NCBI RefSeq assembly: GCF_009914755.1
Contig: NC_060941.1
Reading direction: 5' to 3' (one strand)
DNA from: the human T2T-CHM13v2.0 reference genome, Homo sapiens
DNA: 64,000 nt
Position numbers and translations under genes: made by a program. The notes beneath the pieces were generated by a model. It ran no database searches, was not told the origin of the DNA, and saw only the letters and a list, made by a program, of their open reading frames with translations. Below, piece by piece: positions 34,493-63,308 of the stretch. How positions within the stretch are numbered: position 1 is the stretch's first letter; the number at the start of each line of letters is the position of its first letter.

Positions 34493-34567
34493 GATATCCC
34501 AACTTCGTGGCGACCTATGGCCGTGGCTACCCCGGATTTGCTCCAAGCTATGGCTATCAGTTCCCAG
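34493..34567 (+). CDS. MSI2: MSI2 coding exon (approx. exon 10, 75 nt): (G)[24 protein letters not shown]
   Basis: TACTAAC branch point 34456-34462, pyrimidine tract, AAG acceptor (34491-34492), donor CAG|GTGAGT at 34568. Phase 1-1, in frame with neighbouring exons. Confidence 0.96.
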
Positions 34568-36769: not shown

Positions 36770-39054
36770 TCAGTAACCATGTGTGGCAAGTGGCTATTGC
36801 CAGCACAGAATGTAGAACAGTCACCGTGGAAATTTCTTACGGGCTGGTGCTGTTCCAGTGCCTAAAGGAAGAGGGCTGTTACTGGGGGGTGCACGGTCCA
36901 CACACTCACACATGCGCACCACTCCTTCCTGGAGACACCCATGGGGTCAGTGTCCCTGTGCTTCATTCTCTGCCAGTCTTGCTCAGCCCAGAAGCTGGTG
37001 GCTTTTCCTCTCACTTCCTCCCCTCGCTTCCCCTCCAGGGGATGACAGGTGCAAAGGCTCACGCATCTCGGCCCTCCAGGTGCAGCACTGATCTGTGCAC
37101 TCAGCCTGCACAACCTGCTCCCCTCCGTAATCAGGCTGCCATTGCCCCTGAGTGTGATGCTAGTCCCAGGAGGACAGAGTTGAGGGATCTTAACATGGAA
37201 TAATTGGGAGAGGACATCAATGTGGACCCTATGCTAAGGCCCCTGTCTCATCAGAGGGCCTGCCCCGGGGCCCCCATGAGCTGGCTCAGGAGACATCTAG
37301 TAGAACTCTGCCTCCATGGCCTGCATCCCTGGGCCTGCCCCAGGCAGACGGACATGCAGCAGTGACCAGATTGAGGCTGGGCAGAGTGAGATAGGGTCCC
37401 CTGGGTGCCCAGCCCTTCACCAAAGCCAAGACTTTGGGAACTGGGGGGGCGGGGGATGGACTGGGCTGCAGGAAGGAGGATAGAGTGGGGTTGGAGTGTT
37501 TTTGCCCAGGGCCCATCCGTTTGTCATGGCCACAGTCCCTGCAGCTTAATACAATCAGGTGGGTTTGAATGGGACAGAAATCAGGCATTACAATGTACAG
37601 ACAGCAGCTTCCTGACCTTTGGGAGTTAGCTGCCCTGTTCTCAACCATCAAACTTTTATTTTTCCATCCTTCCCACCTTCCCACTCACTATGGAAGCCTC
37701 TTGATTCTCTTAACTAATGGCCAGAAAGGGGCCACCAGTGGCCACAAGAGTAAGGTTGCCTGCTCTCAGGGAGGGCAAGAGTGGAGTGGCCCTGAACTGG
37801 GAAGGGTGGCCCCATGGCTGGGGCCGCCCACCCCACTCATCTGAGAAGCCAGGCTAGGGTCAGAGTCTATTCCCCTCCTGACCCCCTCCCAAAGGATATG
37901 CTCCTTGTGGAGTGTTGGGTCTGTGCTTATCCCAGATGCCTCCCCAAGCAGCCAAATGTTTCCAGACACAAAGCCTAGGTAGGTCCATGTGTCATTCCAG
38001 TCAAGAGCGCAGGGAGTAGCTGAGCCCCTCTAGAACCAAACTTGATGACTCCTGGAGCCACAGCCTCAGGGCCAGGGCTACAGAGAAGCTTCTGGATGCC
38101 CTGACTTCCATCTGTCACCTCATGCCAATAAGGAAAGTTTCGGGTGGATCTGGCCGAGGCGGCTGGGGTACAGAAGGGGGACCCAGAGATGGGGCAGCCC
38201 AGCCCTCTGCCCTCTCCTCATCCCCATCAGGTAGATTCTGCGAACCCCTGCCATGCCCCGGGGATCCTGTGACTTCGTGACATTACACAGCAGTCATGTC
38301 ACCTCCCAACTATCCTGATGTTTTCTTTGTGGTCTTTCTTTTCAGTGTCCTCACTGTATGCCCACTTTACCCACTTCCCACCTCCGGTCCCCCTCATGCT
38401 GTGCATGGATCCCGAACCTCTCCCAGCCCCTTTCTGAGTCCCCCTAGCAGGGCCATGCAAGACAGCTAGCTGGGAGAAATGAAAGCACGCCCAGGTCCTA
38501 GAGAGCTCCGAGACTCTTCATCCTGGCTGTTCTCACTCATAAACCAGGTAGCCTGGGTCCCCTTTCAGGAAGATGCAATCTGATCCCCTTTATGAAGGGT
38601 CCTCCTTTCCACCTGGACTTACCCTTTCTATGAACATCCATCTCATCTGGTTGGGGGTGCAGATATCACTCTTAGTAGAGCCTCATTCTCACCATGTAAC
38701 ATGGGGCTGCACGGACCTTCCTGGGCCACACAGCTGGTGGCAAGTGGCACCTGGCTGTGCCCATCTTCAGAATTCTGTCAGAATAAATGTTCCTAGAGAA
38801 GGCTAGACACTGGATAGTTTTTAGAGTGGGGAGTAGTTCTTTTCTAGAAAGGCTGGGTGGTGACCAACCACTCTGGGAACAGCTCCTTCTTCCCACATCC
38901 AGGTGTCCACCCCAGCCTGGAATTTGGATCAGGATCCCGTCTTGAATTATTATGGGTTGTGATCAGGGATCTCCCCTGCTTCCTCTCTTTTCCCCACTCT
39001 GGACTTCTCATTTCAGTTTAATCTGTTAATTTCTGTTCTTATTTCACTTTGCAG

Positions 39055-39095
39055 ACTATTTGCCGGTTTCACAAGACATAATTTTTATCAACTAG
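39055..39095 (+). CDS. MSI2: MSI2 alternative last exon, coding part: (D)YLPVSQDIIFIN* (short isoform)
   Basis: Acceptor TTCACTTTGCAG (AG 39053-39054). A phase-1 join to the 34493-34567 exon gives QFP-DYLPVSQDIIFIN and TAG at 39093-39095, which I recognise as the short MSI2 isoform C-terminus. Confidence 0.88.
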
Positions 39096-56848: not shown

Positions 56849-57907
56849 CCCTTGTATCTGTGCTTGCCCATCTCCCGCAAGCCCAGCCACCAAGAAGAGG
56901 CCTGGCCCTGGGAACTCAGTATCAGGGGCCTGTCTGCCAGGTCATATGGAAAATGTATTTGGCGGGTGAGGGGTGACTGGTGAGGCTGGATGGCCTAATG
57001 GAACAGGAGGGGGATGGCGAGGAGCAGCAGAAGGGGGCCAGGAGGACGGCTGTGCAGGATGCTGGTGCAAGCTCCATCCCTTCCCTACCAGGAGGCTCCC
57101 AAGGGGCTAGGCCAGGTTTTGGCAAGGCCCTGGTGTTTCAGATGTAGGGCACAGAGGCAGTGGGGTGGCGACTATGGAGCTGCTGCCCGTGCTGTGTGAG
57201 GGACAGATTGGGCAGCCCTGCTCCTTCAGCCCCTCTTCTCACACCCTCCCTCTCCAGGGTGGAGATGAAATTCCAGCCCTCAGCAGTGTCTGATGCTCCA
57301 CCTCCAGCAGGAGCCTTTATTTGAGATTAAGGATAATGGATTTCCTTTCTTGGATAAGTTTTTTTTTTCTTCCTCTTTCAGACTTTTTGTCCAAAATGCA
57401 CTCAATTCCAGAAAATGGACCTTTTCTTAACAAGTCTTTATTGACTACACTCCCCTCCCCCACTTCGTTCCTCTTTCCCCCTCCCCCAAGTCTTTCCGTG
57501 CTTCCAAGGAAACCCGCTGTTTTCAGCGCATGGTAAGGAGTGCAAAGGAATGACTCACCTGCACCCTCTCCCTCCAGCATCCCCTGGGCCTTGCTCTTAA
57601 CAGCAGCAGAAGCCTGGGTGTCCTGGGGGTTGGGACAGAGAGAAATAACTTGACTTCTTCCTTGTGTTTCTTCAGCAATTTCTGCCAAGACCCTCATCTT
57701 CAGAAATCTAGATGCTGCCTGGAAGAAATGGGGAGAGGACTTGGTTGGGGGTCCCTCCCTTGGTCTCCCTCTCGGTTCATTGCTGCCTTCTGGGGAAGGG
57801 AGGGCCTCCAGTCACCATGCATGGTCTCCATGGGAGCTTGGAGACCTGCAGCCAGGGACAACCATACATTTATTTCACCTGGATCTTTCTTTTTCCCCCT
57901 TCAACAG

Positions 57908-57931
57908 CCCTATTACCATATTTAAATGCAA
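57908..57931 (+). CDS. MSI2: Candidate 24-nt in-frame MSI2 microexon: QFP-ALLPYLNAS-FPAAAY
   Basis: About 50-nt AG-free zone with TCTTTCTTTTTCCCCCTTCAACAG acceptor, donor CAA|GTATGT, phase 1-1, no stop, followed by 11 UAG motifs. Confidence 0.72.
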
Positions 57932-57959
57932 GTATGTCTCTTTTCATTGACATTTTAAG

Positions 57960-58067
57960 TAGCTTAGCCTGACCTTTTTAGAGTAGCATGTTCCCCCTTT
58001 GAACTTCTTTCCCTTCAGTAGTACCGTGTAGCTAGGACAATAGTCTTAGTGTTTAGTGGGCTTCTAG
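57960..58067 (+). promoter_or_regulatory. UAG-rich cluster, putative Musashi-binding intronic splicing enhancer
   Basis: 11 TAG in 108 nt, including (G/A)T1-3AGT matches at 58018, 58040 and 58051. Confidence 0.6.
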
Positions 58068-59356
58068 TTCGCTCTGTTTGGGGGAGCTTTGTCTCTGCTT
58101 TCTTCCCTCCTCTGCTCCCTGCCCTTGACGGTGCATGTCTTCCTCTCGTCCTGTAGAAATTCCTTGTTTAAAAGGCTCAGTAGCTAAAGTTGAGCAGCCC
58201 TGTTGGGGGCTGTTTATTGAGTTTGCGGCTGGCTTCTGGCACATCATTTAAAACCACAGTGATTGGAAATGGGTCTTGGGGTCAGGCCTCCAAGCATCTG
58301 CCTGGATGGCAGAGGATGTTTGTCTTTATATGTATGGGAGTGTATCTGTGTATGTCCCAGCACGAGGCTGTGCGTGCACGTGCTGGTGGCTGAGAGAAGC
58401 CCAGGGTAGGGAACATGGCATACTTCATCTGGATTCTGCAGCTACAAGAGGTTACCTTGGCCTCCTGACTATTATTCCCGTTGCTGGGACATCCTTGCTG
58501 CCCGGTGCATTTTTAGATAGCATAAGCCTTGATCAAGAAGAAATCCAGGGACCCGTAGGAGACCCTCCAGTGCCAGCTTCATCTAGACCGTGGGGCTCAG
58601 ACCGAAGAGCCACATCTAAATTCCCACAATTGCCTCAGGAGGTTGAAACACCGAGAGATCAAATAAAGCCACAGGGCTCACCCCACATAGACCCCTGCAG
58701 CCCCGCACTCCCTTCCCTATCTGGCTCCATGTGTATGCAATCACCTGGGACCCCCCAATGCTTCACCCTCGGGCCTGGGGCTGTGATGCTGCTGACTTCA
58801 TGTTTTGACAAAAGTCTGGAGTTAAAAAGGCCATGCTAACCTGCAGAGCCTTTGGAGAACAGCTGGAATTAAGCCAGCTCCCGGCCAAGGTGCCTGCTCT
58901 GTCAAGAGGCCGTCCCAAGTGCCTCCTGCCTGTGGCACGGGGCTGACCACTCCGCCATGATCTCTGCCAGGAGCAGTGGGCCAGCCCAGCCATGCTCAGT
59001 TCTACTCAAGACAACCCCAGGGGAGCCACTGTGTCGATGCACGGCCAACAGGGAGCTCAACCCTGCTTCTCAAGAAAAAAATTCCTCCTACAATTCTTGA
59101 ATTATTGTTGTGGGCCTTCTAGAACCAGCTTCTGGGGTGACAAATGGGTGAGAATCAAACGCACCTAAAGATGTTGTGCCTTCCGGAAGCCTGACAGCCA
59201 CTACTCTGTGTCCCTCTCAAAAGCTGCCCTGTGAAAATCCCTTCCCACTCCTGTCTTTGTGTGGAGGGCGGGGGGTTGTGTGGCCCGTGACCTAGGTCTG
59301 TGCCTGGCCCTTTCAAGGATTCCTCCATGACTCAGGCTCCTCTCTCTCCTGACCAG

Positions 59357-59419
59357 GCTTCCCAGCAGCGGCTTATGGACCAGTGGCAGCAGCGGCGGTG
59401 GCGGCAGCAAGAGGATCAG
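59357..59419 (+). CDS. MSI2: MSI2 coding exon (approx. exon 11, 63 nt): (G)FPAAAYGPVAAAAVAAARGS
   Basis: Acceptor CTCTCTCCTGACCAG (AG 59355-59356), donor CAG|GTAGGA at 59420. Encodes the Ala-rich Musashi segment, phase 1-1. Confidence 0.96.
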
Positions 59420-62500: not shown

Positions 62501-63260
62501 TCACCTGGTAGTTTGAAATGTCATCTTTTCTTGTGCTCAGTCGAGAGTTTGTTTGTTTATTTTGATCGTATTCATTCAGTTCCAGTGGCCCCATCATGTC
62601 CCACCCAAACCTAAATTCAGTTTGACAGAAGCCTCCCCCGACAGGTGAGGGAAGTGGTTTGGATATTCAGGGTATTTTAGTTTGGGGTGACATTATGGGT
62701 GGGTCCGTGTATCAATCTTAGAGCTTCTGAGCCCCTGGTACCACCCCGTCCCACCTCTCCCCACCCACCCGGCCCCAGCCAGGACCCCTTACTGTACTTT
62801 ATACTTGCCAGCTTTATTCCAATCTAGTAACATGAGCTCCTGATGGTGGTGGTGAGTGTGAGCAGTCATATTTCTGTTGTCTTTTCTCTTGCTTGGTTGG
62901 GGCTGCGGTGAGAGTGTCTCTGAGGCATACTTTCCCGCCTCTCTTACGCTAGGATCTGCACACCTCCTCTCAAACACTCTTCTGAGCACGCTCAGCGGGA
63001 AGGTTTGTCCACACCTATTAATCCTCTCTCAGTGTCCAGCTTCCTGTTAGTACCAGCTGGTTTGCATGTTTTTGCTTGTTCAGATGAAACAGTTCAAGAA
63101 ACAAACTCATATCCAACTCTCAAGAAATGTCTTTTTTTGTACACTTTCGTTTTTGATTTTTTTTATTAGTTACAACTCCAAAACACCTGTTGTCCAGTAA
63201 AACATTTCACACCTCCCCTGCCTGTTCTTAGATTGTATGTATCTGTGGGACTGAACTAAA

Positions 63261-63308
63261 TGCATGCACCGTAGTAGATGTACTGGTAGCCGTAGCTGTA
63301 GTTGTAGT
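63261..63308 (+). promoter_or_regulatory. GUAG cluster plus UGCAUG, putative Musashi/RBFOX intronic element
   Basis: TGCATG 63261-63266, then 6 TAG, each preceded by G, in 63271-63308. GTAGT at 63271, 63298 and 63304. Confidence 0.55.

What the first reader, a model, noticed from the sequence alone, without database searches (positions are those of the whole stretch)
57908..58067. 24-nt in-frame microexon (ALLPYLNAS) followed by 11 UAG motifs
Seen: about 50-nt AG-exclusion zone, strong pyrimidine tract, CAG acceptor, CAA|GTATGT donor, length divisible by 3, correct phase (1-1), no stop. It converts QFP-G-FPAAA to QFP-ALLPYLNAS-FPAAA. TAGs lie at 57960, 57965, 57979, 57984, 58019, 58029, 58033, 58041, 58047, 58054 and 58065, against fewer than 2 expected at 1/64 per position. 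Inference: a tissue-restricted (neuronal/photoreceptor) MSI2 isoform with a hydrophobic short motif inserted in the disordered region.
Basis: partly seen in the sequence, partly recalled or inferred. Interest (0 to 1): 0.8.

Follow-up and report, generated by a model that had tools for sequence, protein, structure and literature searches.

The report
Musashi-switched sensory-neuron microexon in MSI2
This is a real 24-base optional exon of the human MSI2 gene, used in retina and switched on by the sister protein MSI1, likely through the UAG cluster just behind it; it adds a short peptide that is identical from gar to human, is already listed in published data tables, and has no tested function.

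Summary
Confirmed. Window 57908-57931 is a 24-nt, phase 1-1 cassette microexon in MSI2 intron 10. The 11 TAGs behind it are the densest cluster in the window. It is missing from human RefSeq but is catalogued in supplements. Human (ASCOT, hg38 chr17:57650650-57650673): PSI 76 in retina, 12 in cortex, under 0.2 in six other tissues; 0 in HepG2, 34 with MSI1, 52 with MSI1 plus PTBP1 knockdown. Mouse (VastDB MmuEX0029826): rods 93, olfactory neurons 95, pyramidal neurons 0-3; retinal PSI falls from 0.85 to 0.38 in the rod Msi1/Msi2 knockout. The peptide is in 59 of 330 MSI2 protein clusters, identical from gar and sturgeon to mammals. So it is a Musashi-activated retina-enriched microexon on a Musashi gene; direct binding to this cluster is inferred. 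No paper found discusses it. New here: its depth of conservation, a weak likeness to the MSI1 alternative exon in the same intron, and a likely Musashi-induced poison exon in MSI2 intron 4. Peptide function is untested, and four similar conserved microexons were dispensable in mice.

The parts
57908..57931 (+). 24-nt cassette microexon, phase 1-1; replaces G243 of MSI2 by ALLPYLNAS (numbering from the 336-aa python isoform P0246, = 328 + 8)
   Evidence: ASCOT human row chr17:57650650-57650673; mouse chr11:88368212-88368235; peptide in 59 of 330 protein clusters
57856..57907 (+). 3' splice region: 50-nt AG-free zone, pyrimidine tract with TCTT at -24 and -20 (PTBP1-type), CAG acceptor; no TGC within 60 nt upstream
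57932..57937 (+). 5' splice site GTATGT (CAA|GTATGT)
57960..58067 (+). cluster of 11 UAG at +29 to +134 from the donor (10 of 11 are BUAG); likely Musashi-bound intronic splicing enhancer; no stable structure (z 0.62); one GCATG at 57986
   Evidence: binding inferred
57676..57931 (+). longer variant from an alternative acceptor (AG at 57674-57675), 256 nt, frameshifting; listed together with the microexon in the human ASCOT row
34493..34567 (+). upstream MSI2 exon 10 (75 nt; mouse flank also 75 nt)
   Evidence: hub annotation
59357..59419 (+). downstream MSI2 exon 11 (63 nt; mouse flank also 63 nt), encodes the poly-alanine tract
   Evidence: hub annotation

Best explanation
This is a conserved in-frame MSI2 microexon that is included in retina and induced by MSI1, likely because Musashi proteins bind the UAG cluster behind it when their nuclear level is high, so the family likely edits its own MSI2 transcript, and the added peptide is predicted to tune the disordered tail rather than RNA binding. 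Steps: (1) By default the exon is skipped (shown: PSI near 0 in most tissues); PTBP1 on the pyrimidine tract likely helps keep it off (shown: synergy with PTBP1 knockdown; site inferred). (2) High Musashi turns it on (shown: MSI1 is sufficient in HepG2; loss of Msi1/Msi2 in mouse rods lowers inclusion). (3) The 11 UAGs at +29 to +134 are the binding platform (inferred from position and from the mechanism shown for Ttc8 exon 2A). (4) The protein gains 8 residues between the 194-234 PABP/cytoplasmic-localisation segment and the poly-alanine helix, where MSI1 has its own alternative segment Seq1 (position shown). It would most likely change self-assembly or a partner contact of the tail (inferred, about 0.4 on its own).
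For: Human PSI: retina 75.9, cortex 12.4, six other tissues 0-0.17; HepG2 0, MSI1 33.9, MSI1+PTBP1 knockdown 51.8, PCBP2 0, PTBP1 knockdown alone 0, highest ENCODE knockdown about 1. Mapping supported by the second listed acceptor landing on an AG after a pyrimidine tract at 57675. Mouse: same 75-nt and 63-nt flanks, downstream intron 1364 vs 1425 nt; PSI 0.83-0.87 vs 0.29-0.45 in rod Msi1/Msi2 knockout, with raw skip reads rising 35 to 95 while inclusion reads fall 254 to 72; 0.80-0.85 vs 0.38-0.52 in photoreceptor-less Aipl1-/- retina; rods 92.8, olfactory neurons 95.1; mouse RetMIC MmuEX0029826. UAG clusters within 200 nt after the donor mark MSI1-activated exons, and MSI1 eCLIP is enriched there. 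Peptide identical in sturgeon, gar, caecilian, newt, frogs, snakes, turtles, birds, echidna, opossum and placentals. MSI1 Seq1 at this site alters poly-alanine helicity by up to 6%.
Against: No CLIP peak or UAG-mutant minigene was seen for this exon (one search found no peak coordinates; four supplement files were too large and one unreadable). The human PSI row may pool the 24-nt and 256-nt forms. MSI2 is absent from the human, chicken and zebrafish RetMIC lists (18 of 18 files searched) and from ASCOT's human retina-specific table. The knockout removes part of Msi2 itself, so loss of rod transcripts adds to the PSI drop. Retina without photoreceptors still includes it at about 45%. Only MSI1 was overexpressed, and Msi2 loss alone had little effect on rod splicing generally, so this may be MSI1-to-MSI2 cross-regulation rather than autoregulation. 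SRRM3/4 drive 71% of human RetMICs versus 9% for MSI1 and were not tested on this exon. Four conserved photoreceptor microexons were dispensable in mice. AlphaFold gave pLDDT about 25 at the insert, uninformative.
Confidence: 0.8

Rival explanations
1. The exon is real and Musashi-driven, but the peptide has little function. It is a by-product of high Musashi levels, kept because the exon and its surroundings are under splicing-level or weak selection.
For: Deleting conserved photoreceptor microexons in Ttc8, Cep290, Cc2d2a and Cacna2d4 left vision normal. No teleost, lungfish, coelacanth or shark cluster carries the peptide among the hits seen. MSI1 and MSI2 are redundant in adult rods.
Against: 53 of 59 insert-bearing clusters have the identical peptide across ray-finned and lobe-finned lineages, and the 6 variants swap one hydrophobic residue for another. 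This is weak on its own, since leucine codons mutate easily to I, M or F and DNA could not be compared.
Confidence: 0.35
2. Inclusion in vivo depends mainly on SRRM3/4, with Musashi as a booster or acting indirectly.
For: Most retina-enriched microexons respond to SRRM3/4, few to MSI1. About 40% inclusion remains in knockout and photoreceptor-less retina.
Against: No TGC within 60 nt upstream of the acceptor. Mouse pyramidal and granule neurons are at 0-3 and astrocytes at 8; that these neurons are SRRM3/4-rich and astrocytes Musashi-rich is my recall. MSI1 induces the exon in liver-derived HepG2 cells.
Confidence: 0.12
3. In human the main product is the 256-nt frameshifting exon from the upstream acceptor, so the element is mostly a negative-feedback poison exon.
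For: ASCOT lists both acceptors in one row. The upstream acceptor has a good pyrimidine tract and its product shifts the frame.
Against: Mouse tables list only the 24-nt form. The human 24-nt exon keeps the conserved peptide exactly.
Confidence: 0.07
4. Chance splice-like sequence in a long intron.
For: Not in RefSeq RS_2025_08 (hub table); 56 microexon-like candidates exist in the window by loose rules.
Against: Junction-based inclusion in two species and four datasets; conserved peptide.
Confidence: 0.01

Closest known systems
VastDB MmuEX0029826 (mouse RetMIC, PMC9303857 Dataset S1) and ASCOT MSI2 chr17:57650650-57650673 (PMC6952364 Supplementary Data 3)
   Same: The same exon: length, flanking exon sizes, position; ASCOT row maps onto the window.
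   Different: Seen only as table rows; no text discussion, peptide or function found in my searches.
Musashi-activated photoreceptor exons (Ttc8 exon 2A, Cc2d2a, Cep290, Impdh1, Prom1)
   Same: Short cassette, UAG cluster behind the donor, induced by MSI1, synergy with PTBP1 loss, reduced in Msi1/Msi2 knockout.
   Different: The host gene is itself a Musashi gene; high in olfactory sensory neurons too; about 45% included in retina without photoreceptors; direct binding shown for Ttc8, not here.
MSI1 57-nt alternative exon (Seq1 of PMC9054762)
   Same: Same intron and phase, just before the AYGP/poly-alanine exon; its tail resembles the microexon peptide (4 of 7 identical, BLOSUM62 18; empirical p 0.004-0.008 in three nulls, post hoc).
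   Different: 19 aa, charged; about 60% included and unchanged in the knockout; 1 TAG in 136 nt downstream; exon ends are out of register by one codon, so homology is suggested, not shown.
SRRM3/4-dependent neural microexons
   Same: Size 27 nt or less, frame-preserving, long AG-free pyrimidine tract, conserved.
   Different: No proximal UGC; near zero in pyramidal neurons; MSI1-inducible.
Known MSI2 isoforms: variant 2 (exon 11b, PMC5599597) and MSI2-324 (18-aa alternative acceptor, PMC13228403)
   Same: Splicing in the same tail region; an 18-aa change is enough to move MSI2 to the nucleus and stop translational activation.
   Different: Different exons, broadly expressed. PMC13228403 has no occurrence of microexon, retina or photoreceptor.

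Membership tests
Microexon | 3-27 nt, canonical AG/GT, junction-supported | tested here: met
   24 nt; junction-based PSI in human and mouse tables
Retina-enriched microexon (RetMIC) | passes the retina specificity score in VastDB | tested here: inconclusive
   Met in mouse (RSS 76.9); MSI2 absent from human, chicken and zebrafish lists, although ASCOT gives human retina 76 vs cortex 12
Musashi-activated exon | UAG cluster in the proximal downstream intron | tested here: met
   11 UAG at +29 to +134, top cluster of the window
Musashi-activated exon | induced by Musashi gain | tested here: met
   HepG2 PSI 0 to 33.9 with MSI1 (published table)
Musashi-activated exon | reduced by Musashi loss | tested here: met
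   dPSI 0.47 in rod double knockout (published table); partly confounded by Msi2 being the targeted gene
Musashi-activated exon | direct binding (CLIP) and dependence on the UAGs | not testable with these tools
   No peak coordinates in the readable supplements
SRRM3/4-dependent neural microexon | UGC close upstream of the acceptor | tested here: not met
   No TGC in the 60 nt upstream; nearest at 57847
SRRM3/4-dependent neural microexon | broad neuronal inclusion | tested here: not met
   Mouse pyramidal and granule neurons 0-3, motor 1.4, Purkinje 3.6
SRRM3/4-dependent neural microexon | response to SRRM3/4 gain or loss | not tested
   No MSI2 row in the relevant datasets
Paralogue of MSI1 alternative exon (Seq1) | same intron and phase | tested here: met
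Paralogue of MSI1 alternative exon (Seq1) | sequence homology | tested here: inconclusive
   4 of 7 identical, p about 0.004-0.008 post hoc, ends out of register

The most novel reading that the evidence does not exclude
MSI2 carries a built-in Musashi dose sensor that is at least as old as bony vertebrates. Above a threshold, reached in ciliated sensory neurons (rods, olfactory neurons), Musashi splices in this microexon, a descendant of the same ancestral exon as MSI1 Seq1, and gives MSI2 a changed tail that favours its sensory-neuron role as translational activator or splicing factor. At the same time a UAG-flanked poison exon in intron 4 caps its level. This would help explain why a stem-cell repressor acts as an activator in photoreceptors.
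Probability: 0.2. Interest if true: 0.65.

Novelty: already known. Interest (0 to 1): 0.33.

Why it matters
The isoform that likely dominates in rods (mouse PSI 93) is missing from human RefSeq and from the MSI2 functional papers I read, which used forms without it. An 18-aa splice change nearby already moves MSI2 between cytoplasm and nucleus, so the question of why Musashi activates translation in photoreceptors has a cheap, direct test. The exon and its UAG cluster are unannotated intronic sequence that variant screens for retinal disease would overlook. It is also a clean reporter of Musashi activity. It is not a new kind of system.

Tried and rejected
AlphaFold2 of an insert-bearing isoform (25-sequence alignment): residues 187-336 under pLDDT 50, so the helix drawn at 241-250 is not used. 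RNA folding of 57860-58080: no structure beyond shuffles, 143 of 200 fold as well. DNA search of the own genome: single copy, no retrocopy found, though the tool skips common words. Fish search with a skip-form query: 0 of the 120 listed (of 707 hits) had an insert, but that query ranks skip forms first, so it does not show absence; the insert-bearing query (120 listed of 790) found gar and sturgeon, no convincing teleost (Poecilia ALLPSVNR looks like intron read-through), and no shark, lungfish or coelacanth. Human counterpart of the squamate 13-aa exon upstream: none with splice sites in the window, best score 24. eCLIP peak look-up in supplements: nothing. Full-text searches for the peptide or mouse coordinates: 0 papers; searches for a text discussion of the exon gave none in the papers opened. 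Supplements of PMC10987577 were unavailable and bioRxiv supplements are closed. Rejected: chance sequence, SRRM4-type pan-neuronal microexon, novel unreported exon.

Full report
Observation. The 11 TAGs lie at +29 to +134 from the donor, 10 of 11 in BUAG context. Expected at the window's rate: 1.5 (Poisson p 6e-7). Shuffles reaching 11: 1 of 200,000 (mononucleotide) and 259 of 50,000 (dinucleotide, a null that keeps the excess TA and AG). It is the densest TAG cluster on either strand of the window (11 per 108 nt; next 7; opposite strand 6) and first among 56 loosely defined microexon candidates. The region is unstructured relative to shuffles and single-copy.

It is used, in human. ASCOT Supplementary Data 3 (PMC6952364; I saw passages, supplement search rows and part 1 of 11 of that file) has MSI2 chr17:57650650|57650418-57650673. 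The shorter form is 24 nt. Setting 57650650 = window 57908 puts the second acceptor at 57676, directly after a pyrimidine tract and AG, which supports the mapping. PSI: peripheral retina 75.9, cortex 12.4, adipose, bladder, colon, liver, lung and muscle 0-0.17; HepG2 0, MSI1 overexpression 33.9, MSI1 plus PTBP1 knockdown 51.8, PCBP2 0, PTBP1 knockdown alone 0, highest ENCODE knockdown about 1. The row may pool both acceptors; the longer form is 256 nt and frameshifts.

It is used, in mouse. A 24-nt Msi2 exon at mm10 chr11:88368212-88368235 sits between 75-nt and 63-nt exons, as in human; downstream introns are 1364 and 1425 nt. I did not see the mouse DNA; rodent proteins carry the peptide. 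PSI is 0.83-0.87 in control retina and 0.29-0.45 after rod-specific Msi1/Msi2 knockout (PMC9509328 Supplementary Data 12; passages, section 9 and supplement rows seen; four files too large, one unreadable). Msi2 is itself targeted, so loss of rod transcripts contributes, but raw skip reads rise from 35 to 95 on average while inclusion reads fall from 254 to 72, which points to a real switch. Photoreceptor-less Aipl1-/- retina gives 0.38-0.52 versus 0.80-0.85 (PMC4991804; passages and supplement rows), so some inner retinal cells include it too. It is mouse RetMIC MmuEX0029826: retina 88, neural 17, others 1.2 (PMC9303857; passages and 18 of 18 supplement files searched); MSI2 is not in that paper's human, chicken or zebrafish lists. 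ASCOT cell types: rods 92.8, olfactory sensory neurons 95.1, hair cells 12.3, astrocytes 8.2, DRG 4.4, Purkinje 3.6, pyramidal and granule neurons 0-2.8.

Conservation. Three protein searches stored 330 MSI2 clusters (each lists only the best 120 of 921, 707 and 790 hits). 59 of 330 carry the insert: 53 ALLPYLNA, 3 AILPYLNA, 2 ALMPYLNA, 1 ALFPYLNA. Carriers include sturgeon, gar, caecilian, newt, frogs, snakes, lizards, turtles, birds, echidna, opossum and many placentals, which dates the exon to the bony-vertebrate ancestor (about 430 million years, my recall). No convincing teleost, shark, lungfish or coelacanth carrier was seen; these are annotation-based lists, and one search was biased to skip forms, so loss is suggested, not shown.

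Mechanism of inclusion. UAG clusters just behind the donor mark Musashi-activated exons; direct action was shown for Ttc8 exon 2A, and MSI1 eCLIP is enriched at this position across the class. Gain and loss data for this exon fit. Direct binding here is inferred: no peak table was readable. The SRRM3/4 route, which drives most RetMICs (review PMC10987577, passages), fits poorly: no TGC within 60 nt of the acceptor and near-zero inclusion in pyramidal neurons. Whether MSI2 acts on its own exon or only MSI1 does is open; Msi2 loss alone changed rod splicing little (PMC7948980, passages).

Effect on the protein. The insert replaces G243, eight residues after the 194-234 segment needed for PABPC1 binding, cytoplasmic localisation and translational activation, and shortly before the poly-alanine tract; an 18-aa alternative segment after that tract sends MSI2 to the nucleus (PMC13228403, parts 1-3 of 7 read plus a term search). 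PMC9054762 (parts 1-3 of 6 read) states that MSI2 lacks MSI1's Seq1 at this place and that deleting Seq1 raises poly-alanine helicity by up to 6%. Human MSI1 has a 57-nt phase 1-1 exon in the same intron; its tail VLPELTA matches LLPYLNA at 4 of 7 (score 18; 4 of 840 permutations, 57 of 6,816 window 7-mers, 0.4% of 20,000 shuffles; post hoc). That exon has 1 TAG in 136 nt downstream and is unchanged in the knockout. My best guess is that the insert tunes tail self-assembly or a partner contact (about 0.4). AlphaFold was uninformative (pLDDT about 25). The main rival is little function: four conserved photoreceptor microexons were dispensable in mice.

Novelty. The exon is in VastDB and in the supplements of four papers, and predicted vertebrate isoforms contain it, so it is known; human RefSeq RS_2025_08 lacks it (hub table). 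Full-text searches for the peptide or mouse coordinates gave 0 papers, and led to no text discussion in the papers opened (also passages of PMC5599597, PMC12697546, PMC7917623 and bioRxiv 2021.08.04.454918). The library lacks most subscription papers, and unread supplements may hold more. Added here: the conservation depth, the MSI1 likeness, the olfactory-neuron parallel, and a second MSI1-induced MSI2 exon (ASCOT chr17:57259977-57260054; 0 to 56 with MSI1, retina 20) whose best match among 13 candidate 78-nt AG/GT stretches is G000:C17:58135053-58135130 in intron 4, with 7 TAG behind it and an in-frame stop at codon 10, likely a poison exon; that mapping is by fit only.

Verdict: real, well supported, ordinary in kind, unstudied in function. 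Interest 0.33.

Noticed in passing
L015 = G000:C17:58135053-58135130 (+), MSI2 intron 4, outside the window: Likely the second MSI1-induced MSI2 exon of ASCOT (78 nt; HepG2 0, MSI1 56, retina 20, cortex 13). CAG acceptor, TAG|GTAACG donor, 7 TAG in 140 nt downstream, in-frame stop at codon 10: likely poison exon giving negative feedback. Mouse has an 83-nt retina-enriched Msi2 exon (MmuEX0029825). Mapping to T2T is by best fit among 13 candidates.
   Followed up: partly
window 57676-57931: Alternative acceptor 232 nt upstream sharing the donor; 256-nt frameshifting form; no stop before the end of exon 11.
   Followed up: partly
window 63229-63305: Second-densest TAG cluster (7 per 108 nt) inside the alternative last exon 62953-77184; possibly Musashi sites in an MSI2 3' UTR.
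   Followed up: no
window 38794-38845: Six TAGs spaced 7-12 nt apart, about 200 nt upstream of the alternative terminal exon 11b acceptor at 39055; could bear on variant 2 choice.
   Followed up: no
proteins P0038, P0055, P0086, P0275-P0278, P0318, P0322: Squamates have a further 13-aa segment (VLSVGSSIKPSYP or close) just upstream of the microexon, usable with or without it; no human counterpart with splice sites in the window. By eye, this segment plus the microexon resembles the whole MSI1 alternative exon; not scored.
   Followed up: partly
L014 (MSI1, G000:C12:120334400-120344300, - strand): 57-nt alternative exon in the intron matching MSI2 intron 10, same phase, no UAG cluster.
   Followed up: yes
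window 57818, 57986, 58132: RBFOX-type (T)GCATG elements on both sides of the exon, one inside the UAG cluster.
   Followed up: no
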